This document shows, piece after piece, positions 8,499 to 64,000 of a stretch of 64,000 bases of DNA. A program made the translations under genes and the position numbers. The stretch is taken from contig DASXEG010000134.1 of the NCBI GenBank assembly GCA_036490235.1, positions 9,835 through 73,834 of the forward strand, in the 5' to 3' direction. The notes below the pieces were generated by a model. It ran no database searches. It saw nothing but the letters and a program-made list of their open reading frames with translations, and was not told where the DNA came from. This DNA comes from Candidatus Sulfotelmatobacter sp. (GTDB lineage: Bacteria; Acidobacteriota; Terriglobia; Terriglobales; Acidobacteriaceae). The first letter of the stretch is position 1. Every line of letters starts with the position of its first letter.

Positions 8499-10160
8499 AT
8501 GAAGGTTTCCTTTCTAGCTTTGCCGGTCCTTGTGCTTGCCACTGTTCCTTCCTTTATCAACGCAAATGCGCAAACCTCTGGCGACTCCCAGAATGGCTGC
8601 GCATTACACGGAACCGTGATCGACTCCAAGACCGGGCAGCCGGTGAGAGGCGCCGAAGTCACGCTCCGTGGTTGGGGATTGAGTTCCTCAGGATCCTGGG
8701 TGGGCGGAGTGGGAAATCGCTCCGAGCCCACGGCCGCAATCTCTGACTCGGAAGGGCATTTTGCATTTGACAATCTCACCCCCGGACGATATCGAGTCAC
8801 AGCGTCTCGAAACGGTTATGTAAGCCGCGGACCCCGCCCAGGTGCAGGAGGGAGCTTGATTACGTTGTCTTCCGGCCAACAATCGTCCGACACGATTGTC
8901 CGGCTCACTCCTTCTGCGGTGCTCGCGGGCCGCGTCACGAGTGAGGGTGATGAACCTGTTCCGAACGTTTCAGTCGAAGCCATGAAGTATAACTATCAAA
9001 ATGAGCGGCGTCAGTTGACCGAGGTTGGAACCTCGACGACAGATGATCGCGGCGAATACCGTATCTGGGGTCTGCCTCCGGGAAAGTACTACATTCGCGC
9101 CACGCATCCCAGGGGGCAGACCGCGCGGCCCGGTGGCTTGCTCTATGTCCCTATTTTCTATCCCGGAGTGACCGATCCTTCGCGCACGCAACCGGTCGAT
9201 CTTCATCCCGGCGATGAAGCCACAGGCATTGATTTGAACTTTGTCTCGATGCACTCGGTCCGCGTAAGCGGACGAGTTCTGAACGCGAATTCTCAGCCCG
9301 AAAAAGGAGCGCAGGTTTCTCTCGTCGGCGGCTCGGGTAGCTTCACGTTCACTGCGGGCCAGGCTTCCTCAGACGCCAAAGGCGCGTTCGAGATTCGTGC
9401 CGTGCCGCCGGGGTCCTACACGCTCATCGCCGAGCAGTTCGGGAACGGCGAGAACGATAAGGTGATGCGCGGCCGGTCGCCGCTCGACGTGGGCGAGACG
9501 AATATTACTGATGCGGAAGTTGTCACGGGCCCGGGAGCGAGCGTAAGTGGGCACGTGCGCATCGAAGGAAAAAACTCTGCCGATCTCTCGAAGCTCAGCG
9601 TCATCCTCGATCCGCAAGATGATATGGCGTCGCTCGGCTTTGCCCCGGATGTGTCGAATGTTCACGTCCTGCCCGATGGCTCGTTCCAGTTTCATGACGT
9701 GCCTGAGGGAACTTATCGCATCAACGTGATCCCTCTGCCGAACGGTTATTACCTGAAGCCCGGTGGAGAAGGCGACGCGGTAGAAGCTGGCGTGAAGGTA
9801 GGGCGGAACCGTTCCGCAGCAGTAGACCTGACTTTGAGCGCCGGAGCGGGGCGCGTCAGCGGCACCGTCAGCAAAGATGACCAGGCATTTCCAGGCGCGA
9901 CAGTTGTGCTTGTACCCGATCCTCCGCGCCGAGCCGAGCCGCGATTCTACCGGCAGGCCCTCACGGATTCCGGCGGCCACTTCAATATTCAGAACGTGAT
10001 TCCGGGAAATTACAAACTCTTTGCATGGGAAGAAATTGACCGGGGAGCTTATTTCGATCTCGACTTTCTGCAGTCCTATGAGGATTCGGGCAAGGCTGTG
10101 AGCATCGAGGAAGGTTCAGCGCCCAATGTTGAGCTGGAGTTGATTCAGGGAAGCGAATAG
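8499..10160 (+). CDS. Secreted protein with repeated carboxypeptidase-regulatory-like domains
   Basis: The signal peptide is MKVSFLALPVLVLATVPSFINANA. Repeated G.V.D..G.P..GA.V.L / F.F..L.PG.Y modules are present (e.g. HGTVIDSKTGQPVRGAEVTL, FAFDNLTPGRYRV, FQFHDVPEGTYRI, FNIQNVIPGNYKL). Confidence 0.75.
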   Translation: MKVSFLALPVLVLATVPSFINANAQTSGDSQNGCALHGTVIDSKTGQPVRGAEVTLRGWGLSSSGSWVGGVGNRSEPTAAISDSEGHFAFDNLTPGRYRVTASRNGYVSRGPRPGAGGSLITLSSGQQSSDTIVRLTPSAVLAGRVTSEGDEPVPNVSVEAMKYNYQNERRQLTEVGTSTTDDRGEYRIWGLPPGKYYIRATHPRGQTARPGGLLYVPIFYPGVTDPSRTQPVDLHPGDEATGIDLNFVSMHSVRVSGRVLNANSQPEKGAQVSLVGGSGSFTFTAGQASSDAKGAFEIRAVPPGSYTLIAEQFGNGENDKVMRGRSPLDVGETNITDAEVVTGPGASVSGHVRIEGKNSADLSKLSVILDPQDDMASLGFAPDVSNVHVLPDGSFQFHDVPEGTYRINVIPLPNGYYLKPGGEGDAVEAGVKVGRNRSAAVDLTLSAGAGRVSGTVSKDDQAFPGATVVLVPDPPRRAEPRFYRQALTDSGGHFNIQNVIPGNYKLFAWEEIDRGAYFDLDFLQSYEDSGKAVSIEEGSAPNVELELIQGSE

Positions 10161-15819: not shown

Positions 15820-15896
15820 TGGGGGCCCCGGGCGGAGTCGAACCGCCGACCAACGGTTTAGGAAACCGCTGCTCTATCCAACTGAGCTACGGGGCC
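15820..15896 (-). tRNA. tRNA-Arg (anticodon CCT), CCA encoded
   Basis: The reverse complement folds as a cloverleaf: GGCCCCG-TA-GCTC-AGTTGGATA-GAGC-A-GCGGT-TTCCTAA-ACCGT-TGGTC-GGCGG-TTCGACT-CCGCC-CGGGGCC-C-CCA. The anticodon loop TT-CCT-AA gives CCT. Confidence 0.92.
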
Positions 15897-29598: not shown

Positions 29599-30102
29599 TT
29601 GACTAAACCATCGAAGTCAAAACCCGCCCTCACTTCTTTATGGTCCATGCTTCTTGCCTCTTTCTTCGGCATCGGCCGCCTGCGGCCCGGCCCCGGGACG
29701 TGGGCCTCCGCCGTTACCGTTATTCTGTGGAGCTTCATCGCATACTCGCTCCCTCTCACGGTCAGGCTTCCCGCTGCGATTGGTCTCGTTATTCTGATCA
29801 TTGCAGTCGGCATTCCCGCGGCAACCCAGGTTTCGCGAACATCTGGGATCAAAGATCCGCAATTCGTCGTCATCGATGAAGTTGCGGGCCAACTTGTCGC
29901 ACTCATTGCCGTGCCGCTGGCGTGGAAATCTTTTTTGCTCGCTTTTATCCTTTTTCGCGTTTTCGACATCCTAAAACCCCCACCTGTCCACCAACTCGAA
30001 GCTCTACCGGAAGGCGCAGGCATTGTTCTGGATGATATTGCCGCCGGACTTTACGCATTGGTGATCATGCATCTCTTGCTGCACTTTGGTCTTCTAAGAT
30101 AG
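29599..30102 (+). CDS. pgpA: Phosphatidylglycerophosphatase A
   Basis: FFGIGRLRPGPGTWAS, VVIDEVAGQ, FRVFDILKPPPV and LDDIAAGLYA are PgpA motifs. The start (TTG 29599 or ATG 29647) is uncertain. Confidence 0.8.
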   Translation: MTKPSKSKPALTSLWSMLLASFFGIGRLRPGPGTWASAVTVILWSFIAYSLPLTVRLPAAIGLVILIIAVGIPAATQVSRTSGIKDPQFVVIDEVAGQLVALIAVPLAWKSFLLAFILFRVFDILKPPPVHQLEALPEGAGIVLDDIAAGLYALVIMHLLLHFGLLR

Positions 30103-53987: not shown

Positions 53988-55964
53988 ATGGATCTTCTTC
54001 AGAAAATTCGCACTATTCCGACCGAGCCCGGCGTGTACTTGTACAAGAACGCCGAAGGAGAGGTGATTTATGTCGGAAAAGCGAAGAATCTTCGCAGCCG
54101 AGTTTCAAGCTACTTTCACGAGGGACGTTGGGAAGATGCGAAAACCGGAAGCCTGGTGCGCGAGGCCGTCGATGTTGATTACATCGTGGTCGCCAATAAC
54201 AAAGAGGCGTTGGCGCTCGAAAACAATTTAATCAAGCAGCGGAAGCCGCGATTTAACATCTTGCTGCGCGATGACAAAACTTACCCTTATGTGAAGCTCA
54301 CGCTTGGCGAGCGCTGGCCGCGAGTTTACGTCACGCGCCGCCTACGAAAGGATGGCAGCGCATATTACGGTCCGTACTTTCCTGCCAATCTCGCTTACCG
54401 GATTGTCGATCTGATTCATCGGAATTTTCTGATTCCATCCTGCAAGGTCGACCTTACGCGCTTCCATCCCCGCCCTTGCTTGCAGTACTACATCAAGCGT
54501 TGTCTCGGTCCCTGCGTGCAGGCGCTGACGACGCCCGAGGCGTATCAGGAAGCGGTTCGCGACGTGAAGTTGTTTCTCGAAGGAAGGCCTACAGATTTGT
54601 CGCGCTCGCTGCGCCAACGCATGGAACAGGCTGCGGACGCCGAGGAGTACGAACGAGCCGCGCGCTATCGTGACTTAATCTCTACCGTCGAGCAATTGCA
54701 GGAGCGCCAGCGAATCGCCGCAGCCGAAGGCGATGACGCGGACGTATTTGGGTATCACTTTGAAAACGGAATGCTGGCTGTGAATTTGTTTCACATGCGC
54801 GGCGGGCGGGTAGTCGACCGCCGGGAATTTTTCTGGGAAGACTTGCCGGAGTTTGAGAGTCCAAGAACGCATCGTCATCCTGAGCGAAGCGAAGGGCATA
54901 TGCAGTCTGCAGGTAGCGCCGATGCGGACTGCACCAGCTTAGCTCGCGATAGTTCGAGGGTTTTGTCGGCCCCCGAAGAAAGCGGGCCTCAGAAGGACAC
55001 AACAAAACCCGGCTTTTCTCCCAATGAGTTCTTCTCTGCCCTTCTGAAGCAGCTCTACATCGAACAGCCTTACGTTCCCCGGAATTTGTACGTGCCAGTC
55101 GATTTCGAAGATCGCGAAGAGCTGGAAAATCTGCTCTCAGAAAAGTTCGCAGGTGAGGGTGCTCGCGCTCCGCGGGTGCATATTCTGGTTCCGCAGCGGG
55201 GCGATAAGCGGGCGTTGATCGACCTGGCTGGAACCAACGCCAAACAATCCTACGATCAGCGTTTCCGCGTGCTCAAGCCGAACGCCCGAAAGATTCAGGA
55301 AGAATTACAGGAAATTCTCAGTCTTCCTGATTTGCCGAAGCGCATCGAGTGCTTCGACATCTCTCACATTCAAGGTGCAGAAACTGTCGCCTCGATGGTC
55401 GTATGGGAAGACGGCAAGATGAAAAAGTCGGACTACCGCAAATTCATCATCCGCACCGTCGAGGGAGTGGACGATTTTGCCTCAATGCGCGAGGTGGTCA
55501 CGCGCCGCTATAAGCGAGTGCAACAGGAAGAAAAGCGGATGCCAAGTCTCGTGCTGATTGACGGAGGACTCGGACAACTACATGCCGCCGCCGAAGCGCT
55601 GGAATCGCTGGAGATCATCAACCAACCGCTCGCTGCGATTGCCAAGCGCGAGGAAATTCTCTACGTTTACGGCCAGGAGAAAGATCCGATTGCGCTCGAT
55701 CATCACTCACCCGTGCTTCATCTGATTCAGCAGATTCGCGATGAAGCTCATCGCTTCGCTGTGACATTCCATCGCAAGCGACGCCAGATGCGTGACCGGT
55801 CGACGGAGCTGTTGGAAATTCCGGGGGTAGGAGAAAGCACCACCCGCCGTTTGCTCGAACACTTTGGTAGCCTGCAGGCGGTAAAGCAGGCGGATGCAGC
55901 CGCATTATCGGCAGTAGTGACGCGGGGACAAGCGGAGGCCATTAGCAGTTATTTTCGCAAGTAA
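53988..55964 (+). CDS. uvrC: Excinuclease ABC subunit C (UvrC) carrying a ~50-aa in-frame insertion
   Basis: GIY-YIG is present (GVYLYKNAEGEVIYVGKAKNLRSRV). The UVR domain is EEYERAARYRDLISTVEQL. The C-terminal endonuclease region has IECFDISHIQG and IDGG.GQL, followed by an (HhH)2 tail. Confidence 0.92.
   Translation: MDLLQKIRTIPTEPGVYLYKNAEGEVIYVGKAKNLRSRVSSYFHEGRWEDAKTGSLVREAVDVDYIVVANNKEALALENNLIKQRKPRFNILLRDDKTYPYVKLTLGERWPRVYVTRRLRKDGSAYYGPYFPANLAYRIVDLIHRNFLIPSCKVDLTRFHPRPCLQYYIKRCLGPCVQALTTPEAYQEAVRDVKLFLEGRPTDLSRSLRQRMEQAADAEEYERAARYRDLISTVEQLQERQRIAAAEGDDADVFGYHFENGMLAVNLFHMRGGRVVDRREFFWEDLPEFESPRTHRHPERSEGHMQSAGSADADCTSLARDSSRVLSAPEESGPQKDTTKPGFSPNEFFSALLKQLYIEQPYVPRNLYVPVDFEDREELENLLSEKFAGEGARAPRVHILVPQRGDKRALIDLAGTNAKQSYDQRFRVLKPNARKIQEELQEILSLPDLPKRIECFDISHIQGAETVASMVVWEDGKMKKSDYRKFIIRTVEGVDDFASMREVVTRRYKRVQQEEKRMPSLVLIDGGLGQLHAAAEALESLEIINQPLAAIAKREEILYVYGQEKDPIALDHHSPVLHLIQQIRDEAHRFAVTFHRKRRQMRDRSTELLEIPGVGESTTRRLLEHFGSLQAVKQADAAALSAVVTRGQAEAISSYFRK
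54874..54896 (+). repeat. Core of a dispersed GTCATCCTGAGCGAAGCGAAGG-type repeat, embedded in uvrC
   Basis: The sequence gtcatcctgagcgaagcgaaggg translates in-frame as (R)HPERSEG and on the opposite strand as ...SLRMT. From memory, this core is a widespread small dispersed repeat in several phyla. I noticed only one copy in this window. Confidence 0.5.
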
Positions 55965-56080: not shown

Positions 56081-57379
56081 GTGCGTCGCCCGGCAGGAAT
56101 TCTAAACGTGGAGCAGATATTATTTCTGGCCAATATAGGGCAGCTCCTCACTCTTCGCTCTACTTCGGATAGTTCCCGTCCTCGCCGCGGTGCAGAACTG
56201 CAGCAGCTCGGCATCATCGATAATGCGGCGGTGTTGTGCCTGGGCGGAAAAATTGTGTCGGTCGGCGCAATGAAAGACGCGCTGCGCGATCCCTGGCTTA
56301 GGAAAAATCGGAAGAATCTCCTCGAAATCGACTGCTCCGGTAAAGTTGTCCTTCCTGGCTTCGTTGACTCACATACACATCCCGTTTTTGCCGGCCCTCG
56401 GTTGCTCGATTTTGAAAAACGCATTCAAGGTGCATCCTATGAAGAAATCGCCGCGGCCGGTGGCGGTATACGGTCAAGTTTGGAGGGAGTTCGCAAGGCG
56501 GCTGAGAGGGATCTGGTCTTGAAATTATCGGCCGTGCTGCGCGATATGGCAGTCCACGGCACAACTACCGTCGAAGCCAAATCCGGTTACGGTCTGACCG
56601 TCGAATCCGAGTTGAAGTCGCTCGAAGCCATTCGCGGGGCGGCAGGCAGTTGGGCCGGAACGGTGGTTCCCACGTTCCTGGGCGCACATGTAGTGCCTCA
56701 GGAATTTCATGGCCGCTCACAGAAATATATACAGATCATCTGTGAGGAAATGATTCCACAAGTCGTGAAGCGGAGGCTTGCGCAATTTGCAGACGTTTTC
56801 TGCGACAGAGGTGCGTTCGCGGCAGAAGAAACGCTGGAAATCTTCGAAGCTGCTTCGCAGCACGGGCTCGGCGTTCGTGCTCACGTGGGACAGCTTTCTC
56901 ATACAAAACTGAAGCCGTTGCTGCGCTACGAACCAGCATCTCTCGATCACATGGACCACGTGGACGATGACGACATATTGGAACTGGTTCAACACGACAC
57001 CGTCGCGACCTTCGTATCGGGAGCAAATTACTTTCTAGGAATGAACGCCTATCCGCAGGCAAGAAGACTAATCGACGCGGGAGTTCCCGTGGCGCTTGCA
57101 ACCGACTATAACCCCGGAACCTCGCCAACGTTGAGCATGCCGATGGCGATGTCGCTTGCCTGCACGCACATGGAGATGTCGCCGGCGGAGGCTATTGTGG
57201 CCGCGACGATCAATGGCGCATGGGCTTTGAGAGTCGCGGATCGCAAGGGCTCGATTGAGCCGGGAAAAGATGCGGATATGGCCATCTTCAACGTCAACGA
57301 TTACCGCGAGATTCCCTATTGGTTTGGAACGAACCGCTGCGAAACAACGGTTATCAACGGCGTTGTATCTCAACGATAG
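56081..57379 (+). CDS. hutI: Imidazolonepropionase (amidohydrolase superfamily)
   Basis: VLPGFVDSHTHPVFAG, ASYEEIAAAGGGI, TTVEAKSGYGL, ATDYNPGTSP and DADMAIF are HutI motifs. The start (GTG 56081 or GTG 56108) is uncertain. Confidence 0.85.
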   Translation: MRRPAGILNVEQILFLANIGQLLTLRSTSDSSRPRRGAELQQLGIIDNAAVLCLGGKIVSVGAMKDALRDPWLRKNRKNLLEIDCSGKVVLPGFVDSHTHPVFAGPRLLDFEKRIQGASYEEIAAAGGGIRSSLEGVRKAAERDLVLKLSAVLRDMAVHGTTTVEAKSGYGLTVESELKSLEAIRGAAGSWAGTVVPTFLGAHVVPQEFHGRSQKYIQIICEEMIPQVVKRRLAQFADVFCDRGAFAAEETLEIFEAASQHGLGVRAHVGQLSHTKLKPLLRYEPASLDHMDHVDDDDILELVQHDTVATFVSGANYFLGMNAYPQARRLIDAGVPVALATDYNPGTSPTLSMPMAMSLACTHMEMSPAEAIVAATINGAWALRVADRKGSIEPGKDADMAIFNVNDYREIPYWFGTNRCETTVINGVVSQR

Positions 57380-57525: not shown

Positions 57526-57601
57526 GGCCAGGTAGCTCAGGTGGTAGAGCGCAGCCCTGAAAAGGCTGGCGTCGGCGGTTCAACTCCGTCCCTGGCCACC
57601 A
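57526..57601 (+). tRNA. tRNA-Phe (anticodon GAA), CCA encoded
   Basis: The cloverleaf is GGCCAGG-TA-GCTC-AGGTGGTA-GAGC-G-CAGCC-CTGAAAA-GGCTG-GCGTC-GGCGG-TTCAACT-CCGTC-CCTGGCC-A-CCA. Confidence 0.92.
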
Positions 57602-57756
57602 TGTTTTCAATCATTTACCTCCGTTCGGAAATCCCAACCTGTTCCAATTTGTTCCAAAAAAAATAAAGCTGGACCTACCGGGTTCGCCTGCTCAGTAGAT
57701 GTTTGCCCCCAGACTGCAAGCTCCAGCGCCGATTTTCGCCTTTGGAGATTACCCAA

Positions 57757-58185
57757 ATGACAACCTTCACTTTTCGAGCGCCGGAAGAGATAACGACAAG
57801 CCTTACTTCCGCCGAGATGCGTTCATGGCTGCATGATTTTATTCACCAGCCTCATTCGTTGCCGCCGGATCCAGGTTCAGGGTACGGGCGTGTTTCGTTA
57901 ACGCTGCCAGCAGATGCCGTCAATGCTGTTGCCACGTACTCGAACTCGTCCACCAGTTCTGCTCTTCGGCGGATCGCAGTAGCGCGCTTGGGCCTGCGAA
58001 GTCTTAGCAGTCCCGAGGATTACAGCGCCCCTCATCGTTCCCCGGCAGCTCCTGCGTCCGGAAGGTCGCAAGACAATTCGCGATCAGGAGATGAAGTCGC
58101 CGGAGCACTGGTGTCGTTTGTCATTTGGATCATTTTCGTCGGAATTGCAATTCTCGCTGCCTCGAGCAGGAAGAAAGATGGTTAA
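57757..58185 (+). CDS. Hypothetical protein, possible ribbon-helix-helix-like N-terminus with C-terminal TM anchor
   Basis: ATG 57757 is preceded by ggagattacccaa. RVSLTLPADAVNAVATYSNSSTSSALRRIAVARL resembles an RHH strand-helix-helix. The C-terminal GALVSFVIWIIFVGIAILAASS is a TM helix. Confidence 0.5.
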   Translation: MTTFTFRAPEEITTSLTSAEMRSWLHDFIHQPHSLPPDPGSGYGRVSLTLPADAVNAVATYSNSSTSSALRRIAVARLGLRSLSSPEDYSAPHRSPAAPASGRSQDNSRSGDEVAGALVSFVIWIIFVGIAILAASSRKKDG

Positions 58186-58299
58186 AGTCGCATGACAAGC
58201 ATGACTTAGAAAAACCCTATTTACGATGAATTGCTAATTGCCACGGTTTATGGACCCTCCAATTGTCTAGTTTTTGCTGCTTCGTAGATTCTCGGTGAA

Positions 58300-58599
58300 G
58301 TGTTGGAACAGAACATGTCACATTTACCTCGTTACAACAGGTTGAAACAACGTGCGCTGAGCGTATTCGAATGTCATGGTGGCTGGATCAGGCCGACAGA
58401 GTGGGCCGTTCTCGTTGGTTTCTATCCGATCCGCGCCGCGTATTCCTATTTACTTCGGTTACATCGTTTTGGGCTTTTGGAGCGTTTTAAGACAACTGCA
58501 GGGATCGTGTATCGGCTCTCTGAGCGTGGGGCTGGACGACTGGAATGGCTGACGAATGTAGCGAAAACAAGGGCTGCATCCGTGCCAAGACGTCGATGA
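58300..58599 (+). CDS. Hypothetical small protein, possible winged-helix DNA-binding fold
   Basis: WIRPTEWAVLVGFYPIRAAYSYLLRLHRFGLLERFKTTAGIVYRLSERG resembles an HTH plus beta-wing pattern. The start is GTG 58300 or ATG 58315. Confidence 0.45.
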   Translation: MLEQNMSHLPRYNRLKQRALSVFECHGGWIRPTEWAVLVGFYPIRAAYSYLLRLHRFGLLERFKTTAGIVYRLSERGAGRLEWLTNVAKTRAASVPRRR

Positions 58600-58675
58600 G
58601 TGTTAGCCACATTTCTTAGCCAAACTGAGGTTCCGCAGAACGGAGACTCAAGACTATGCAGGCAGTTGCCGTTTG

Positions 58676-59632
58676 CTATTTCGTGGGTTTCGATTGGCTA
58701 ACCAAACGTCCTCTCGGCTCCATGCCTTCGAACTCAAACGGAAGGCCCTTATCCAGGCCGAGAGACAAAGAGATCGCAAGCAAACTTCGTCCAGCCGCTG
58801 AGTTTTGAGCTTCTTCATTGATACTGCACCACTGGCACATTCCGGATTCCGATAGATCTGCCGGTTCAAAACATCCTCCACAGACACTCGCGATGCTCTG
58901 AAAGTCATCTCCGGACCATGTCGAGGCGCGCAGATCTGAATCCGTAAAAAATGGCTTGAACGTTCGAGCACCGATTCGTAGCTGAACGATTGGAACGCTC
59001 CACTCTCTAGCACGTGCTTTGCATAAGTCTTTGACACTCGACTCCGCGTTAGGTCCTAAAATGACGCAGCGAAGCGCGGCTCGACTGAATCGACCAAGCA
59101 AAACACCGTCGAGATCCTCTACTGCATTCGGTGGAACCACAATTCTTCTTTCAGCTTCATACTGCCAGTCGGTCCTTTTCCTAAAGTATGCGGCCCGGTG
59201 CGCCGCTGCTATTAGAGCCAGAGCGTGTCTACGTTTCCCAGTCATATACGCATATTTAAGTATTCCCGAATCTATCGTTGCGGGGCCATCCGCATATTCG
59301 ATGTCACCCGCATACGCGATCGGCAGTTCCTTCACTAAGACGTCCTCGTCAAGCCCAAGGCATATCCCTGCACATTCTTTACCATAGTGTGCCCACATTA
59401 CGACCGAGTCCGGTCGCCTTGAAAAGCACGCTACCGGAGTTTCGACCACCTTCCCGAGAAAATACGCATAAAATGCGCGGTGCTCTTCGCTTTCCAGCGG
59501 TGGATCGGGCTGCAGGAATAGCTCGTAGGGATCGTTGTAGTGTTTTGGAAGCCCAAAGCGAATTGATAAGCCATTGGCACTCACGAATACTTTTGAGACC
59601 GAGTCTGGACCTACGTATTTGAATATCAACAT
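58676..59632 (-). CDS. DUF2971-family protein with C-terminal CxxC...CxxC tail
   Basis: The DUF2971 pattern is IFKY, RFGLPKHYNDPYE, VACFSRRPDSVVMWAHYGKECAGICLGL, KRTDWQYEAERRIV. The tail reads SVCGGCFEPADLSESGMCQWCS. It starts 22 nt after the upstream stop, with a purine-rich gaagagaaagaagc before the ATG. Confidence 0.75.
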   Translation of the reverse strand: MLIFKYVGPDSVSKVFVSANGLSIRFGLPKHYNDPYELFLQPDPPLESEEHRAFYAYFLGKVVETPVACFSRRPDSVVMWAHYGKECAGICLGLDEDVLVKELPIAYAGDIEYADGPATIDSGILKYAYMTGKRRHALALIAAAHRAAYFRKRTDWQYEAERRIVVPPNAVEDLDGVLLGRFSRAALRCVILGPNAESSVKDLCKARAREWSVPIVQLRIGARTFKPFFTDSDLRASTWSGDDFQSIASVCGGCFEPADLSESGMCQWCSINEEAQNSAAGRSLLAISLSLGLDKGLPFEFEGMEPRGRLVSQSKPTK

Positions 59633-59654
59633 GCTTCTTTCTCTTCGATGGTGA

Positions 59655-62600
59655 TCAAGACAGAGTTTTTTCCAAGATCTGCATAACTTTCGGTTTGATT
59701 ACCTCGATATCTACTTCTCCCCTTAAGAACTGGTACACGACCTCGATCAGGACTTCGCCGAGCAAGCCTTGAACAGCGGAAGCCGACCCTGTTCCAGCGC
59801 GCCACTGTTTGCCAATGTCTTCTCGGCAGATCACAAACGTTGGATCGTCTTTTCCAGGTTTGGAAGGTCTAGTTACGGCACAGATTGTGAAGTCTGGAGG
59901 AAAATAAGAAATCATGTCTTTAGGCATTGACTCGATGTTGCCGACGTAAATGTCGAGCTCACGCCTCGGAAGCTCTGGTACGGAAAGCATCTGAGCAATG
60001 CTTTGCTCGAAACCCTTGAAAAACATTGCAAGCAAAGCTGAAGCTGTGAAAGTGTCGATACGACCATCTAGACACGTAATCGTGACGAGGGCGGGCTTAC
60101 GCAGATTGAGGCCGACGACCCAGGATGAACCCTCTTGTTTAAACCTAAAGTGAAGCCCACTAATTCGGTCCTGTATTTTGTCACCAAGTTGCACCAAATG
60201 GCGAAGAGCCAAGCCGTCCTCAGGAATGCTAGCCAAAAGCTGCATCGCTGGGAAAAGAATCCTCGAAGCCTCTGCATCCTTAGTTTGAGCTGAAAGCTGC
60301 TTCAGAACACGCCCGAATAGAAAACGCGCCACAGGCTGCGGGAGATCTGCAAACATGAATCGGAAGTGCAGTCCGAAAAGCCTAATGGCATGGTCACTGT
60401 GAACATTCCCTAACATGATGTCGATGCAATCAAACAACTGCTCTGTGGCGGGCTTCTTCGCAGCGGCTGTCAGGCCGTAAGCCAGATTGATGCAACCGAT
60501 GTATTTGTCGGGGCCCAAATTCTCGTAGACACATGTCGAGAGCGCATCCACAGTCAGCCTGGATTTTTCCTTGATATCCGTCGAAGCGGCAGCAGCCTTA
60601 GCGTAGGATTCTGCTGCGTTGTCCCACGATCTCGCTGAATAGTGACAGTCTCCGACTTCTTCAAGAGCATCGGCCAGCCCAGTTGAGGCAATGGAGCCCT
60701 CTAGGAGAGCGACAGCAACCTTGGCATGTTCTAGCGCCAAACGATTGTTGCCCTGCGTGCGATATATACCTGCAGTGAGTCTGGCAGCAGATGCCTCGAG
60801 GCTCTTGTCGCTAGACCTACGACCGAGATCTCCAGCTGCAGCGTACTCTGTGATCGCTGCATCCAGTTCGCGTTTGTCTCTGAGCACGTTCCCAACATTT
60901 AGACGATTAATGCCAGCCAGGTTGAGGTCTCCGAGTTCCTCTCCAATTTGCACTGCCTCACGACCATAGGAAAGTGCTTCCTGGAACTGTTTCTTGCGTC
61001 GCAGGGTCCGCACCATGTAGTTGCACAACCAGGCTCTCTCACGCTGGTCCCCTGACTCCTGCTGCTGCTCCTGAAGCTTTTCGATCAGCACTATTGCTTC
61101 CGTTTCTCTGCCGGGGGTCTCTGCCAATGCCGACGCCATATTTCGAATAGAGACGGACACGCCGTAAACGTCTCCGAGATTTTCGAAAATCTTCAGTCCT
61201 CGTTCGGATACAGCGAGAGCCTCTGGAAATCTCTTCGTCCGGGTAAACAATACACTCAACTCAGTCGTTAAACGTCCAGCAGACCAACGGTCTCCAGTTG
61301 CTAAGTATTCCTGTTCTAGTTTCTGCAACATCTCAAGGTATTCAAGGGACAGGGTTGATTTGGCTAAATAGATTGCGCGTACTTCACGTGCACGCAAATT
61401 CAGGATTGGATCACCAGAGCTACTGGCGACCCCATCAACCTCGGCAAAGACAGCGTCCAGCTCCGAAGTCCGACCTGTGTGGTGCAGCGCGTGGGCCCGG
61501 GAAAGAAGCAGAGTCATCAAATCCTGGGGATCCGACTTTTTCCGTGCACTCTCCAGAATGTCATCAACAATGACAAGCTGTGACTTAAAGTCGCCTCTTC
61601 TCTGGGCATCAAACAGTGCGAGGCGCGAGATCGACTTCGCAGCAGACTTGTCTGCCTCGCGAAGAACAAGAAATGCGTGGAGATAGTCGCCACGCGCTCT
61701 TAGAAGTGTTGCGACACGGCCACTGTAATATGCAAATTTACTCGGGCTTGTGGACAGCTGCTCTCGAATCGTGAGTCTCTGGTGTTCATGTCGGAGCGCA
61801 TAGCCATTGGGGAACTCCGCGACGAAGACTTGAGCTCGTTGTAGCGTATCCGTCATTTCTTCAAGGGGCCCGCCACCCTGTCCCACCAATCCAACTAGCT
61901 CTACAAGAGAGATTCGTTGATTGGCTATAGCCAGATACGAGGCCAGTTCGCGAGCTAAGGGCTCCAGCTTGCGCCAAGCGTCTAATTCATACTCGCGAAA
62001 ACTCTTTTCAGAAGCGACTTCGGGCGATTGAGAAAAATACAGAAGATATAACGGATTGCCCGCGGACTTCTTATAGATCTCCTCTAGTTCTTCCCCTGAC
62101 AGTTCCTTGCCATGGCTCGTCAAGAACTCCGTTGCCTCCGAGAAAGAGAGACCAGGAACCGTAAAACGTGTGTGTCCAAATCGCGCATCTGCAATCCTGA
62201 TGCTGTAGATCAATCTTTTCGTTTTGCTAGCAGGCCCAGCATTTTTGAGAAAAGCTGCCACGAACTCGGGGTCCGAACAATCGTCGATCACTAATGTGAA
62301 AGTCTCGGCGGTTCGCCATTCTTCCAGGAGAGCTGAAAATGCGCTGGTTGCGTCGGCGAAATACCGCGTGTTGGCGCCTCTTGCGGAAGCCAATTTGTTG
62401 GTGACCACAGCTGCAAGCTCATGATTGTCCAGCTGGGTTGCGCTTACGAAAAGAAAACCATTGTCCTTCGCAACTGTGGCTAGAAATACGGTTTTACCTA
62501 TTCCCAGTTCCCCAGAGACCTGGAGAACGTGGTCGGACGAAAGTTGCTCCAGCAAGAGGTCAGCGAGTTTCTTGCGCATCAGTAACGACTTCGGGGCTGG

Positions 62601-63122
62601 AATAAGACCCGATACAGCTGCAGCTGCATCTGTGTGGACTATGGCTTCTAGACGCTCTGCTTCGTGAAAGCGCTCGGTGACTTCGGCTTCAATATCTTCA
62701 CGAATCCTCTCATAGAGTTCCTCAGGGTTGCGATACCTAGAATATGTAATCTCCGATTGCACTTCCTTCAACATCGCGGACAATCGCGGATCTCGATCCT
62801 GGGCAGGATCAAGCACGTAGACGAGTCGAGGCATTCCCCTTTGACTCGAGCGGCGCAACTCGTCTTCGATCCCGGAGATTGCTGCTCCAGGTGCTACCCA
62901 GCCGTACCCATTCCGGTAGATGCTTATGAAAATGTCAGACTGGTCTAATTTCCCTAGATATAGCGCTCTTGGTGACACTGATCGAGCGCCGATGTGCTCG
63001 AATAGAATTGCGTCGTGATTGAGGGACTCGATTGCGCGCTTTGCCGCGGAACGCTCGGCCGCGCACTCTCCGATAGTCGAACTCACGAAAATTTGCAGCT
63101 TCTCCTGAATCCGTTCAGACAT
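59655..63122 (-). CDS. DUF4062 / P-loop STAND NTPase / TPR-repeat protein with unassigned C-terminal domain (1155 aa)
   Basis: aa 8-105 match the DUF4062 pattern (LQIFVSSTIGECAAERSAAKRAIESLNHDAILFEHIGAR...SDIFISIYRNGYGWV...ISGIEDELRR...PRLVYVLD). Walker A GELGIGKT is at aa 204-211 (nt 62490-62513). Walker B TFTLVIDD is at aa 274-281. A GNPLYL motif follows as in NB-ARC/STAND. aa ~600-880 are TPR-like helical repeats. The last ~280 aa have no motif I recognise. Confidence 0.8.
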   Translation of the reverse strand: MSERIQEKLQIFVSSTIGECAAERSAAKRAIESLNHDAILFEHIGARSVSPRALYLGKLDQSDIFISIYRNGYGWVAPGAAISGIEDELRRSSQRGMPRLVYVLDPAQDRDPRLSAMLKEVQSEITYSRYRNPEELYERIREDIEAEVTERFHEAERLEAIVHTDAAAAVSGLIPAPKSLLMRKKLADLLLEQLSSDHVLQVSGELGIGKTVFLATVAKDNGFLFVSATQLDNHELAAVVTNKLASARGANTRYFADATSAFSALLEEWRTAETFTLVIDDCSDPEFVAAFLKNAGPASKTKRLIYSIRIADARFGHTRFTVPGLSFSEATEFLTSHGKELSGEELEEIYKKSAGNPLYLLYFSQSPEVASEKSFREYELDAWRKLEPLARELASYLAIANQRISLVELVGLVGQGGGPLEEMTDTLQRAQVFVAEFPNGYALRHEHQRLTIREQLSTSPSKFAYYSGRVATLLRARGDYLHAFLVLREADKSAAKSISRLALFDAQRRGDFKSQLVIVDDILESARKKSDPQDLMTLLLSRAHALHHTGRTSELDAVFAEVDGVASSSGDPILNLRAREVRAIYLAKSTLSLEYLEMLQKLEQEYLATGDRWSAGRLTTELSVLFTRTKRFPEALAVSERGLKIFENLGDVYGVSVSIRNMASALAETPGRETEAIVLIEKLQEQQQESGDQRERAWLCNYMVRTLRRKKQFQEALSYGREAVQIGEELGDLNLAGINRLNVGNVLRDKRELDAAITEYAAAGDLGRRSSDKSLEASAARLTAGIYRTQGNNRLALEHAKVAVALLEGSIASTGLADALEEVGDCHYSARSWDNAAESYAKAAAASTDIKEKSRLTVDALSTCVYENLGPDKYIGCINLAYGLTAAAKKPATEQLFDCIDIMLGNVHSDHAIRLFGLHFRFMFADLPQPVARFLFGRVLKQLSAQTKDAEASRILFPAMQLLASIPEDGLALRHLVQLGDKIQDRISGLHFRFKQEGSSWVVGLNLRKPALVTITCLDGRIDTFTASALLAMFFKGFEQSIAQMLSVPELPRRELDIYVGNIESMPKDMISYFPPDFTICAVTRPSKPGKDDPTFVICREDIGKQWRAGTGSASAVQGLLGEVLIEVVYQFLRGEVDIEVIKPKVMQILEKTLS

Positions 63123-63999
63123 TCAATGGCTCCAGAAGATTTAGCTGCGCGAGTTTCCTTTGAAGGTTATCCAGATCTAGCGATGAGATCGTCTGTCGCT
63201 CTGCTTCCAGCAGGGCAATTGCATCCAGTTGTACCTGCGCGATTATTTGTTCTGTGGAGAATCTTGAGATTTCAGGCGTATCTGATCTCTCTTCTCGCCC
63301 TTCGAGTGCCTTCGTTACTCCACTGGTTAATTCTTCCGCAGTTAGGTTAGGGTAGAAAAGCAAGCCATCGAATAGAGATGCACTCAGAAGCAAGTTGCAT
63401 GCTGCTTGTTTGACCTGCCATTCTTTGACGCCCCTCGATTGCAACACATTCATCATTCCTGCGTACCTCCCAGCCCGGATACGTTCAATCGTTACCGGGA
63501 AGTATCGTTCAAGCATCCTAGTTCTATGTCGGAAGTATTCCTCGGGTTGCTGGGGTTCCGGGGCGGGCAGAGACGAAAGAAAATCTCTCTTCTGGTGCTT
63601 TCTGATAGGCTCCGAATTCGGTTTGTTCCGGAGCAACGAGTAGAAGCTGGTGCCCGGCAAGATGGCATCCTCATCAAGGAAGTCCGCTTCGAACTTTAGA
63701 ACTGGAGCAACTTCATCCAAAGGATCAATGTTGTTAGGCGCTGGCGTACTAGGAGTTTCTAGCACGGCCGCACCCAGCAAAAACGGGGAGATCAAGAAAG
63801 CTTGCTTGTATTGCCGTAGTTCTTCAAGGGCTGGGTGGCGGGTGTCAAACTGTTTGATATAGCTTCCCCCAAATAGGATCGTAGAGTAAATGCGATCTGA
63901 TCCTGTGAGATCATGAGTTGTCCTACTTGGCTCCCGCTCGATGCACAGTAAGTAGCCACCATCCTTTAGGAAGATAAATGTGAGCTTAACTGCATCCCC
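63115..63999 (-). CDS. Hypothetical protein, 5'-truncated by the window edge (first visible gene of the island operon)
   Basis: My manual translation shows the frame of ORF 63115..63795 stays open from 63796 to 63999 (GDAVKLTFIFLKDGGYLLCIEREPSRTTHDLTGSDRIYSTILFGGSYIKQFDTRHPALEELRQYKQAF then LISPF...). The listed start at 63795 is a TTG. Its stop TGA (63115-63117) overlaps the ATG (63120-63122) of the next gene as ATGTCTGA. Confidence 0.65.
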   Translation of the reverse strand, partial: GDAVKLTFIFLKDGGYLLCIEREPSRTTHDLTGSDRIYSTILFGGSYIKQFDTRHPALEELRQYKQAFLISPFLLGAAVLETPSTPAPNNIDPLDEVAPVLKFEADFLDEDAILPGTSFYSLLRNKPNSEPIRKHQKRDFLSSLPAPEPQQPEEYFRHRTRMLERYFPVTIERIRAGRYAGMMNVLQSRGVKEWQVKQAACNLLLSASLFDGLLFYPNLTAEELTSGVTKALEGREERSDTPEISRFSTEQIIAQVQLDAIALLEAERQTISSLDLDNLQRKLAQLNLLEPLNV

Positions 64000-64000
64000 G

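What the first reader, a model, noticed from the sequence alone, without database searches (positions are those of the whole stretch)
57602..64000. Compositional break exactly at the 3' end of tRNA-Phe: probable genomic island whose far boundary lies outside the window
Upstream of 57601 the genes are core (hutI, uvrC) and GC-rich. Immediately downstream the sequence becomes AT-richer. Hand counts of 60-nt lines give 42% at 60001, 50% at 61201 and 50% at 62401, against 55% at 30001 and 58% at 9001. The segment begins with an A-tract and a 10-nt-periodic direct repeat tgttccaa (57640-57647 and 57650-57657). tRNA 3' ends are classical integration sites. No integrase or repeated tRNA 3' segment is visible in the 6.4 kb available.
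Basis: partly seen in the sequence, partly recalled or inferred. Interest (0 to 1): 0.65.

Follow-up and report, generated by a model that had tools for sequence, protein, structure and literature searches.

The report
Defence-carrying genomic island in tRNA-Phe
The AT-richer stretch after tRNA-Phe is the first half of a 12-kb mobile island, with its own integrase, a repeated tRNA half at each end and probable anti-phage genes; this is an ordinary kind of element, here mapped to the base in a soil acidobacterium.

Summary
The observation and the interpretation both hold. GC drops from 55.7% to 51.1% exactly at the 3' end of tRNA-Phe (57601). GC3 of the genes falls from 0.62 to about 0.5.

Three public metagenome contigs are 100% identical to the window and extend it. 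The island runs from 57602 to virtual coordinate 69575 (11,974 bp). It ends in a perfect 48-nt copy of tRNA-Phe positions 29-76 (attR). GC then jumps to 61.7%.

A tyrosine integrase sits at the far end, preceded by a rolling-circle Rep-like gene.

In 54 related elements the same positions hold repeats that change together within each element. They are most likely integrase arm-type binding sites.

The cargo is:
- a DUF2971 gene (PADLOC candidate PDC-S31);
- a rare conserved pair of an unknown 386-aa protein and a DUF4062 (NIR NADase)-STAND-TPR protein;
- a BglII-like nuclease with a coiled-coil partner and no methylase.

Verdict: a precisely bounded, probably still mobile integrative element. 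It is a new member of a known kind. No empty site or excised circle was seen.

The parts
57526..57601 (+). tRNA-Phe (GAA), intact. This is the integration target; its 3' part is supplied by the island.
   Evidence: ARAGORN. The sequence is 100% identical to the tRNA-Phe of relatives L002 and L015.
57554..57601 (+). attL core: a 48-nt identity block covering tRNA positions 29-76, from the anticodon stem to CCA.
   Evidence: Identical 48/48 to the distal copy at virtual 69528-69575. The ends of Logan contig L020 fall inside this repeat, as expected for an assembly-graph branch point.
57602..57619 (+). Conserved box TGTTTTCAATCATTTACC, directly after the tRNA on the island side (P' arm).
   Evidence: Similar boxes follow the tRNA in the complete sibling islands L051, L057 and L099.
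57640..57657 (+). Two direct TGTTCCAA repeats with a 10-nt period. They are inferred P' arm-type integrase binding sites. An eight-base A run follows at 57656-57663.
   Evidence: Sibling islands have two repeats at the same +38 position, and the repeat variant matches that of their attR-side repeats.
57757..58185 (+). p142: hypothetical protein with a C-terminal membrane helix. Probably a backbone gene of the element.
   Evidence: ORF, called as a gene on L020, L107 and L108. No hit in any family library. Homologs lie together with p99 homologs in L034 and L055.
58303..58310 (-). A sixth TGTTCCAA copy in inverted orientation, 5 nt upstream of the p94 ATG. It may be an extra integrase-binding or operator site (speculative).
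58315..58599 (+). p94/p99: a small protein that looks like a winged helix. Candidate regulator or recombination directionality factor (function not shown).
   Evidence: The JGI gene call is 94 aa. There is only a faint PaaX-like Pfam hit. Homologs occur in L034, L055, L058 and L067.
58676..59632 (-). DUF2971 protein of 318 aa. It matches the PADLOC candidate defence family PDC-S31.
   Evidence: Pfam DUF2971 2.5e-6, above the cut-off. PADLOC PDC-S31 8e-18. phrog_1762 2e-26.
59655..63122 (-). NLR/Avs-like protein of 1155 aa: an N-terminal DUF4062 (NIR, TIR-like NADase) domain, a P-loop STAND NTPase and C-terminal TPR repeats.
   Evidence: Pfam DUF4062 6e-18 and TPR_12 7e-12. Invariant residues across 10 homologs (26-89% identity to the window protein) include E88 (E86 nearly invariant), the Walker A residues G204/G207/G209/K210, and D280. 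For the role of DUF4062 see bioRxiv 10.64898/2026.09.04.749371 and 10.64898/2026.05.01.722283.
63115..64000 (-). p386: unknown protein whose reading frame overlaps the start of the STAND gene by 8 nt. The gene continues to virtual 64275 beyond the window end.
   Evidence: Homologs directly precede the STAND homolog (8-nt reading-frame overlap in L109 and L110, a 3-nt gap in L111) in three diverged genomes. Only 26 homolog clusters exist and none has a Pfam domain.
64000..64000 (.). Marker for the part of the island that lies BEYOND the window. It is read from contigs L020, L107 and L108, which are 100% identical to the window. Virtual coordinate = 57377 + (14926 - position in L107).
- BglII-like endonuclease, 64293-64826 (-)
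- coiled-coil p489, 64823-66292 (-)
- zinc-ribbon ORF, 66354-66617 (+)
- Rep_trans-like rep322, 67182-68150 (+)
- tyrosine integrase, 68161-69420 (+)
- three TGTTCCAA arm repeats at 69424, 69437 and 69447 (+)
- attR core (48-nt tRNA-Phe fragment), 69528-69575 (+)
- then the 61.7%-GC right flank, with a Ser/Thr kinase gene from 69743 (+)
   Evidence: - Contig identity and attR.
- Gene calls.
- BglII domain 4.3e-45, integrase domains. phrog_1 5.8e-58.
- Rep_trans hits, all below threshold, in 6 of 6 relatives. Rep_1 in the same position in L057.
- Arm repeats.
- Right flank.

Best explanation
Window 57602-64000 is the proximal 6.4 kb of an 11,974-bp integrative genetic element inserted by site-specific recombination into the tRNA-Phe gene of a Terriglobia (Acidobacteriota) chromosome.

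Shown:
- The element lies between the intact tRNA-Phe and a perfect 48-nt direct copy of tRNA positions 29-76.
- It carries an intact tyrosine integrase gene at its distal end.
- It differs in GC and GC3 from both flanks.
- It belongs to a large family of integrase/att modules. These almost always sit next to tRNA-Phe sequence, with varied cargo and varied flanks.

Inferred:
- A circular form carrying attP recombined with the tRNA gene. attP would read: 3 arm repeats, about 73 nt, the 48-nt core, 38 nt, then 2 arm repeats.
- Strand exchange occurred in or near the anticodon loop. The element's own copy of the 3' half restored the tRNA, and the original half was displaced to the far end.
- The TGTTCCAA repeats are arm-type sites. 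They would be bound by the conserved N-terminal domain of the integrase.
- After excision the element probably replicates as a rolling-circle plasmid, using the Rep-like gene next to int.
- No transfer or capsid genes are present, so movement between cells would need a helper or transformation.
- The cargo is most likely anti-phage defence. It comprises a DUF2971/PDC-S31-like gene, a conserved pair of an unknown 386-aa protein with a NIR(DUF4062)-STAND-TPR sensor expected to deplete NAD+ on activation, and a BglII-like nuclease with a coiled-coil partner.
For: - Boundaries: tRNA-Phe. L020, L107 and L108 are 100% identical to the window over 6.4-7.1 kb and continue through the island. The 48/48 repeat is at virtual 69528-69575.
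- Composition: GC 55.7 / 51.6 / 61.7% for left flank, island and right flank. GC3 shift.
- Integrase.
- Family: 2489 homologs with E<1e-20. Of 86 related loci, 54 have the window's arrangement (int, repeats, partial tRNA-Phe). A further 21 have tRNA-Phe sequence convergent with int, 5 contigs are too short and 6 have none.
- Complete sibling islands with other cargo: L051, L057 and L099.
- The same module is followed by different right flanks in L021, L025, L027, L028 and L107.
- Arm repeats: 6 copies against 0.56 expected on L107. Their position is conserved, and the variants (TGTTCCA, CGTTCCA, CATTCCA, GGTTCCA, TGTCCCA, CGTATCA) change together in all copies of one element and on both arms.
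- Rep.
- Cargo: and the DUF4062 papers read.
- Definition of a tDNA island: PMC4383910.
Against: - No empty tRNA-Phe site in a close relative was found, and no circular attP junction. The nearest genomes share only 67-78% HutI identity and have unrelated DNA after tRNA-Phe. Recent mobility of this copy is therefore inferred.
- No excisionase was recognised.
- The Rep assignment is below Pfam's threshold, and there is no PDB sequence match.
- The integrase model is of moderate quality (pLDDT 64.5).
- The binding of the integrase to the repeats, the crossover position and every cargo function are untested.
- PADLOC does not recognise the STAND protein as a known system; it gives only a weak TPR hit.
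Confidence: 0.85

Rival explanations
1. The element is a fixed, decaying remnant that can no longer excise. It would be an old island kept for its cargo.
For: All three independent contigs show only the integrated state. No excisionase was found. Decayed relatives do exist: in L034 the int gene lacks its N-terminal domain and the tRNA fragment is only 45 nt.
Against: The 48-nt repeats are perfect. The integrase is full length and is 97% identical to its closest family member, P0001. All five arm repeats are intact. The GC3 difference has not been worn away.
Confidence: 0.12
2. It is a prophage or a phage satellite (PICI- or P4-like) that is packaged by a helper phage.
For: An integrase plus a replication gene plus defence cargo in about 12 kb resembles phage satellites. 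DUF2971 matches a phage protein family (phrog_1762).
Against: No capsid, terminase, portal, tail or known hijacking gene appears in any library. IMG/VR holds only one distant integrase relative (48% identity), against 203 in the metagenome contigs.
Confidence: 0.06
3. There is no island. The AT-richer stretch is ordinary local variation in composition, or a chimeric assembly join at the tRNA.
For: The GC drop is only 4.6 points. Single 1-kb windows elsewhere fall as low as 50.9%.
Against: No upstream 6.4-kb window falls below 54.1%. The junction is identical in three assemblies from different samples. The att repeat, the integrase and the family evidence cannot be explained this way.
Confidence: 0.01

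Closest known systems
tDNA-integrated genomic islands as defined by Islander (Hudson, Lau and Williams 2015, PMC4383910), class with an anticodon-centred attP
   Same: There is an intact tRNA gene and a displaced 3' fragment downstream in the same orientation. A tyrosine integrase lies between them. The identity block starts in the anticodon stem and runs to the 3' end. Tandem arrays occur at the same tRNA in relatives.
   Different: The host is an uncultured Terriglobia acidobacterium. I found no published description of this integrase family. The integrase lies at the end far from the intact tRNA.
pSAM2-type integrative plasmids (AICEs) of actinomycetes (from my own knowledge of pSAM2: int, xis, repSA and tra genes, with an att identity segment from the anticodon loop to the 3' end of tRNA-Pro)
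   Same: A tyrosine integrase sits next to a rolling-circle-type replication gene. The element integrates into the 3' half of a tRNA gene and is small (about 10-12 kb).
   Different: No FtsK-like transfer gene and no recognisable Xis are present. The Rep is only weakly Rep_trans-like. The phylum is different, and the cargo is defence genes.
Integrative and mobilizable elements (IMEs) and defence islands at tRNA hot spots, such as the pheV/pheU islands of Enterobacteria and the Mesorhizobium symbiosis island in phe-tRNA (Sullivan and Ronson, cited in PMC4383910)
   Same: tRNA-Phe is the target. Cargo is modular and exchangeable between siblings. The element has no transfer apparatus of its own.
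   Different: The integrase lineage is unrelated to the P4-like enterobacterial integrases as far as tested; only generic tyrosine-recombinase similarity was found. The element is far smaller than the symbiosis island.
NIR/DUF4062-STAND-TPR Avs-like antiviral proteins (bioRxiv 10.64898/2026.09.04.749371; Swarozyc 10.64898/2026.05.01.722283; Evangelion 10.64898/2026.06.25.731849)
   Same: There is an N-terminal DUF4062 domain with conserved glutamates, a central P-loop STAND NTPase and C-terminal TPR repeats. The gene sits on a mobile element beside other defence candidates.
   Different: This protein always comes with an upstream unknown 386-aa partner, either overlapping it or within 3 nt. 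That partner is not mentioned in the parts of those papers that I read. No activity has been tested, and PADLOC does not call it a known system.

Membership tests
tDNA-integrated genomic island (Islander criteria, PMC4383910) | Intact tRNA gene at one end | tested here: met
   tRNA-Phe(GAA) at 57526-57601
tDNA-integrated genomic island (Islander criteria, PMC4383910) | Displaced 3' fragment of the same tRNA, downstream and in the same orientation | tested here: met
   48/48-nt copy of positions 29-76 at virtual 69528-69575 on L107 and L108. Its first 30 nt are also on L020.
tDNA-integrated genomic island (Islander criteria, PMC4383910) | Tyrosine integrase gene inside the interval | tested here: met
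   419-aa gene. Pfam Phage_integrase is above the cut-off and phrog_1 gives 5.8e-58.
tDNA-integrated genomic island (Islander criteria, PMC4383910) | Presence/absence polymorphism (an empty site in a related strain) | tested here: inconclusive
   The closest genomes share only 67-78% HutI identity and have unrelated DNA after tRNA-Phe. Exact-protein look-ups of uvrC and hutI found nothing. Indirect support: the same int/att module has different flanks and cargo.
Prophage | Virion structural and packaging genes | tested here: not met
   No such hit for any of the 10 island proteins in PHROGs, Pfam or NCBIfam.
Integrative conjugative element (ICE) | Type IV secretion genes, coupling protein, MOB relaxase | tested here: not met
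   None found in Pfam or NCBIfam scans of all the island proteins.
Integrative rolling-circle plasmid / IME (pSAM2-like) | Rolling-circle replication initiator or relaxase gene | tested here: inconclusive
   rep322 and 5 relatives all hit Rep_trans, but below the cut-off (best E 0.002, 18 bits against 29.6). There is no PDB sequence match. Sibling L057 has a strong Rep_1 gene in the same position.
Integrative rolling-circle plasmid / IME (pSAM2-like) | Excisionase (Xis/RDF) and a transfer or mobilisation function | tested here: not met
   No HTH_17, Xis or transfer domain was found. p94 and the zinc-ribbon ORF remain candidates without any family hit.
NIR(DUF4062)-STAND antiviral NLR/Avs-like proteins | N-terminal DUF4062 domain with conserved acidic catalytic residue | tested here: met
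   Pfam DUF4062 at 65 bits against a cut-off of 24.7. E88 is invariant and E86 nearly invariant across homologs of 26-89% identity. Which glutamate is catalytic is inferred from the papers.
NIR(DUF4062)-STAND antiviral NLR/Avs-like proteins | Central STAND P-loop NTPase and C-terminal repeat sensor | tested here: met
   The Walker A residues (G204, G207, G209, K210) and D280 are invariant. The AAA_16 hit is weak. TPR_12 gives 7e-12.
NIR(DUF4062)-STAND antiviral NLR/Avs-like proteins | Phage-triggered NAD+ depletion and protection | not testable with these tools
   Needs expression, phage challenge and an NAD+ assay.
PADLOC candidate PDC-S31 (DUF2971) | Match to the family HMM | tested here: met
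   PDLC04990 8e-18. Pfam DUF2971 is above the cut-off. The family itself is only a candidate defence system.
Type II restriction-modification system (BglII type) | Endonuclease together with a cognate DNA methyltransferase | tested here: not met
   The endonuclease domain is strong (4.3e-45), but no island protein has a methyltransferase domain. Its conserved neighbour is a coiled-coil protein instead. It is not filed as an R-M system.

The most novel reading that the evidence does not exclude
The island family may be a so far undescribed, abundant lineage of tRNA-Phe-specific integrative rolling-circle plasmids. It would shuttle defence modules among soil Acidobacteriota. Two of its cargo modules may be new defence systems. 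The first is a rare obligate pair of an unknown 386-aa protein with a NIR-STAND-TPR NADase sensor; it has 26-33 clusters among 5.8 billion proteins and always keeps the same gene order. The second is a methylase-less BglII-like nuclease coupled to a coiled-coil partner.
Probability: 0.35. Interest if true: 0.55.

Novelty: new member of a known kind. Interest (0 to 1): 0.4.

Why it matters
This is a clean example of an integrative element mapped to the base in a phylum that is hard to culture and whose mobile elements are little studied.

- The integrase, attP core and arm sites form a ready-made candidate for a site-specific integration tool for Acidobacteriota. The tRNA-Phe target is 100% conserved across the relatives sampled (the window, L002 and L015).
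- The family gives natural variation in arm sites. This could be used to study how integrase N-terminal domains and their DNA sites co-evolve.
- The cargo adds a conserved two-gene variant to the newly recognised DUF4062/NIR NADase defence proteins.

None of this overturns current understanding.

Tried and rejected
- Exact-protein look-ups of the truncated 226-aa ORF, UvrC and HutI found nothing. The chromosome around the island could therefore not be followed in other samples.
- The GTDB relatives found with HutI are too distant. Their DNA after tRNA-Phe shares nothing with the window or with each other, and the right-flank kinase is not next to tRNA-Phe in any fetched locus. No empty-site test was possible.
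- A profile search of the PDB with the Rep-like family gave only chance hits.
- The coiled-coil protein p489 gave weak LmuB, JetC, SMC and EH_Signature hits. These cover only its coiled-coil stretch, and I treat them as composition artefacts.
- The 226-aa ORF that the ORF listing reported at 63115-63795 is an artefact of the window end. The real gene has 386 codons.
- The AlphaFold2 model of the integrase is only moderate (pLDDT 64.5). Foldseek returned generic tyrosine recombinases, so it supports the N-terminal arm-binding fold only through its secondary structure.
- IMG/VR held one distant integrase relative, so the prophage reading was dropped.
- The motif TTCRCACCTGTG of the right flank occurs in no other fetched locus.


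Full report
**Observation**

ARAGORN places tRNA-Phe(GAA) at 57526-57601 on the + strand. Upstream are uvrC (53988-55964) and hutI (56081-57379), both above the curated NCBIfam cut-offs.

GC is 55.7% over 1-57601 and 51.1% over 57602-64000. Windows of the same 6.4-kb size upstream have mean 55.7%, sd 0.96 and minimum 54.1%, so the segment lies about 4.8 sd low and below every upstream window.

Among 46 core ORFs, GC3 has mean 0.621, sd 0.033 and minimum 0.547. Six of the seven island ORFs have GC3 of 0.484-0.534, and all are shifted towards atypical synonymous codon use.

The tgttccaa pair at 57640 and 57650 and the A run that follows are as described. In detail: the drop is modest, but it is real and sharply bounded.

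**Extending the window**

The 1155-aa protein encoded at 59655-63122 was found on Logan contig L020 (SRR11836411, 11,985 bp). A shorter gene call for the same protein was found on JGI contigs L107 (14,926 bp) and L108 (12,928 bp).

Reverse-complemented, all three contigs are 100% identical to the window where they overlap: L020 from 57573, L107 from 57377 and L108 from 56861, each up to 64000. They are also identical to each other beyond the window end.

I therefore use virtual window coordinates above 64000, defined as 57377 + (14926 - position in L107).

L020 begins 29 nt before the end of the tRNA. It ends with the 30 nt that begin at tRNA position 29. That is the signature of a de Bruijn-graph contig bounded on both sides by one repeat.

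L107 and L108 read straight through. A perfect 48-nt copy of tRNA-Phe positions 29-76 lies at virtual 69528-69575, in the same orientation as the tRNA gene.

The interval 57602-69575 is 11,974 bp at 51.6% GC. The 2.7 kb after it are 61.7% GC and encode a Ser/Thr kinase-TPR-TolB_N protein with GC3 of 0.72. Both boundaries are therefore compositional breaks that coincide with the tRNA repeat.

**Anatomy** (window orientation)

| Feature | Coordinates | Strand |
|---|---|---|
| attL core | 57554-57601 | + |
| conserved box TGTTTTCAATCATTTACC | 57602-57619 | + |
| two TGTTCCAA repeats | 57640, 57650 | + |
| p142 | 57757-58185 | + |
| p94/p99 | 58315-58599 | + |
| DUF2971 | 58676-59632 | - |
| DUF4062-STAND-TPR | 59655-63122 | - |
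| p386 | 63115-64275 | - |
| BglII-like | 64293-64826 | - |
| p489 | 64823-66292 | - |
| small zinc-ribbon ORF | 66354-66617 | + |
| rep322 | 67182-68150 | + |
| integrase | 68161-69420 | + |
| three TGTTCCAA repeats | 69424, 69437, 69447 | + |
| attR core | 69528-69575 | + |

The five minus-strand genes, from p489 (first) to DUF2971 (last), are tightly packed. Neighbours overlap by 4 nt or 8 nt, or are separated by 17-22 nt.

The integrase has Phage_integrase and SAM-like domains and matches phrog_1 at 5.8e-58.

**The integrase family and the att site**

The integrase has 2489 homologs at E<1e-20, many of them 65-97% identical. I fetched 86 related loci and sorted them by what follows the integrase gene:

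| What follows int | Loci |
|---|---|
| Partial tRNA-Phe copy (from position 27-29 to 76 in most), same orientation, mostly 75-116 nt after the int stop: the window's arrangement | 54 |
| tRNA-Phe sequence convergent with int, mostly about 62 nt after its stop (10 full genes, 11 fragments) | 21 |
| Contig too short | 5 |
| No tRNA-Phe sequence (one has tRNA-Ala) | 6 |

Loci L051, L057 and L099 contain complete islands between tRNA-Phe and the fragment. These are 3.7-7.6 kb long and carry different cargo.

The same int/att module is followed by unrelated right flanks in L021, L025, L027, L028 and L107.

Several loci carry tandem islands behind the first fragment: L021, L027, L028, L035 and L099.

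This is what is expected of a mobile element family specific for tRNA-Phe. It meets the Islander definition of a tDNA island: a regenerated tRNA gene, a displaced fragment in the same orientation, and an integrase between them (PMC4383910).

**The tgttccaa repeat**

On L107 the octamer occurs 6 times against 0.56 expected, and 0 of 200 shuffles reach 6. Five of those copies lie in two clusters in the same orientation: two copies 38 nt after the attL core, and three copies 74-104 nt before the attR core.

When the 54 window-type relatives are lined up on the core, the same columns in most of them hold two or three copies of a 7-mer. The variant differs between elements: TGTTCCA in most, CGTTCCA, CATTCCA, GGTTCCA, TGTCCCA or CGTATCA in others. 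All copies within one element carry the same variant.

In the complete islands the two copies beside attL carry the same variant as those beside attR. For example, L099 has CGTTCCA on both sides.

Concerted change of this kind is what protein-binding sites do when they co-evolve with their protein. I infer that these are arm-type integrase sites.

The integrase has a conserved extra N-terminal region with invariant R33, R34, W47, R63, R65 and R67. The AlphaFold2 model folds residues 40-92 as three strands and a helix, at block-mean pLDDT 57-88. Foldseek aligns the model over the full length of lambda integrase as well as Tn1549 Int and XerA. The model is only moderate overall (pLDDT 64.5), so this is supportive, not decisive.

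**Mechanism**

Shown: the structure of the two junctions, the integrase, and the behaviour of the family.

Inferred:
- A circular form with an attP of about 240 bp recombined with the chromosomal tRNA-Phe. attP reads: three arm sites, 73 nt, the 48-nt core, 38 nt, two arm sites.
- The identity block starts inside the 5' strand of the anticodon stem. Strand exchange therefore most likely occurs in the anticodon loop, between the inverted stem halves. Islander calls this class an anticodon-centred attP.
- The element's copy of the 3' half now completes the tRNA.

rep322 lies directly upstream of int. It and five relatives all hit Pfam Rep_trans, but below threshold. In sibling L057 the same position holds a clear Rep_1 rolling-circle replication gene (1.7e-82). 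I infer that the excised form replicates as a rolling-circle plasmid.

No excisionase, relaxase, secretion, capsid or packaging gene was recognised.

**Cargo**

The 1155-aa protein has an N-terminal DUF4062 domain (6e-18) and C-terminal TPR repeats. Across ten sequences (the window protein and nine homologs 26-89% identical to it), E88, the Walker A residues and D280 are invariant.

Three 2026 preprints show that DUF4062 (NIR) is a TIR-like NADase. It serves as the effector of Avs and other NLR-like antiviral proteins, and of the Swarozyc, Evangelion, Vulcan and Vesta systems.

In three diverged contexts (65%, 38% and 30% identity) the homolog is always directly preceded by a homolog of p386 (8-nt reading-frame overlap in L109 and L110, a 3-nt gap in L111). 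DUF2971 is not conserved there. The neighbours are a resolvase, AbiEi/AbiEii, and an integrase with type IV secretion genes.

p386 has only 26 homolog clusters and no Pfam domain. At least 12 of these clusters have a longest contig whose length equals that of a contig carrying a STAND homolog. The pair is thus a rare conserved two-gene module.

DUF2971 matches the PADLOC candidate PDC-S31 (8e-18).

The BglII-like protein (4.3e-45) and p489 recur as a pair in L027, where the other three genes are absent. No methyltransferase is present, so I do not file this pair as a restriction-modification system.

That all of this is anti-phage defence is inference from homology and context.

**Rivals**

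- A fixed remnant cannot be excluded, because no attP or attB junction was seen. The perfect repeats, the full-length integrase and the intact arm sites argue against decay.
- The prophage or satellite reading lacks any structural or hijacking gene. IMG/VR holds only one distant integrase relative.
- Chance composition or an assembly chimera is refuted by three identical assemblies and by the att structure.

**Comparison and novelty**

This is a textbook tDNA island in its logic. It is closest in organisation to small integrative rolling-circle plasmids of the pSAM2 type and to mobilizable islands at tRNA hot spots.

What is new is the lineage and its details: an abundant integrase family in soil Acidobacteriota that I did not find described, its arm-site variation, and its cargo. 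I rate it a new member of a known kind, with moderate interest.

Noticed in passing
virtual 69576-69640 (L107 2660-2725, minus strand): Directly after attR the right flank repeats the layout of an island's P' arm. There is a similar box (TATCTTTCAATCACTTAGC), then two direct repeats (TTTCGCACCTGTG and TTTCACACCTGTG) starting 35 and 49 nt after the CCA. A 61.7%-GC kinase gene follows. This may be the start of a second, tandem element or a remnant of one. The motif occurs in no other fetched locus.
   Followed up: partly
L001 12347-14000; L002 8031-11133: The closest GTDB relative (HutI 78% identical) has a different tyrosine integrase, convergent with tRNA-Phe and directly after it. Both relatives also have a pepN-like aminopeptidase gene between hutI and tRNA-Phe that the window lacks (a 267-aa piece in L001, the full 920 aa in L002). 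tRNA-Phe is a hot spot across this lineage.
   Followed up: partly
L021 3579-5500; L027 6946-7060; L028 4320-4420; L035 11380-20969; L099 11198-11323: Tandem arrays occur behind the first tRNA fragment. The downstream elements have their own, different paired repeats (for example CAGTCCGC twice, GGCTCCA twice, or a 21-nt repeat). L021 has a second integrase with an HTH_17 excisionase.
   Followed up: partly
window 58303-58310 (minus strand): An inverted sixth copy of TGTTCCAA lies 5 nt upstream of the ATG of the small gene p94. If the integrase binds it, it could regulate that gene.
   Followed up: no
L057 8724-9974; L099 7973-9532: Sibling islands swap modules. L057 has a strong Rep_1 replication gene in place of rep322, plus an HNH nuclease. 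L099 carries a large serine recombinase as cargo.
   Followed up: partly
L034 100-2136: This is a decayed relative. p142 and p99 homologs are fused directly to an integrase that lacks its first 58 or so residues (the putative arm-binding domain), and the tRNA fragment is shortened to 45 nt.
   Followed up: partly
L076, L081, L090, L092, L093, L098, L105: A more distant integrase subfamily (57-60% identity) has the opposite layout. Here int converges on the intact tRNA-Phe, about 62 nt from its 3' end. The orientation of the att core relative to int has therefore flipped within the family.
   Followed up: partly
window 63115-63795: the ORF listing reported a 226-aa ORF with a TTG start here. 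It is really the C-terminal part of a 386-codon gene that runs off the window end.
   Followed up: yes
window 15820-15896 (minus strand): A second tRNA gene, tRNA-Arg(CCT), is present. No integrase-like sequence occurs anywhere in the window, and I did not examine its surroundings.
   Followed up: no
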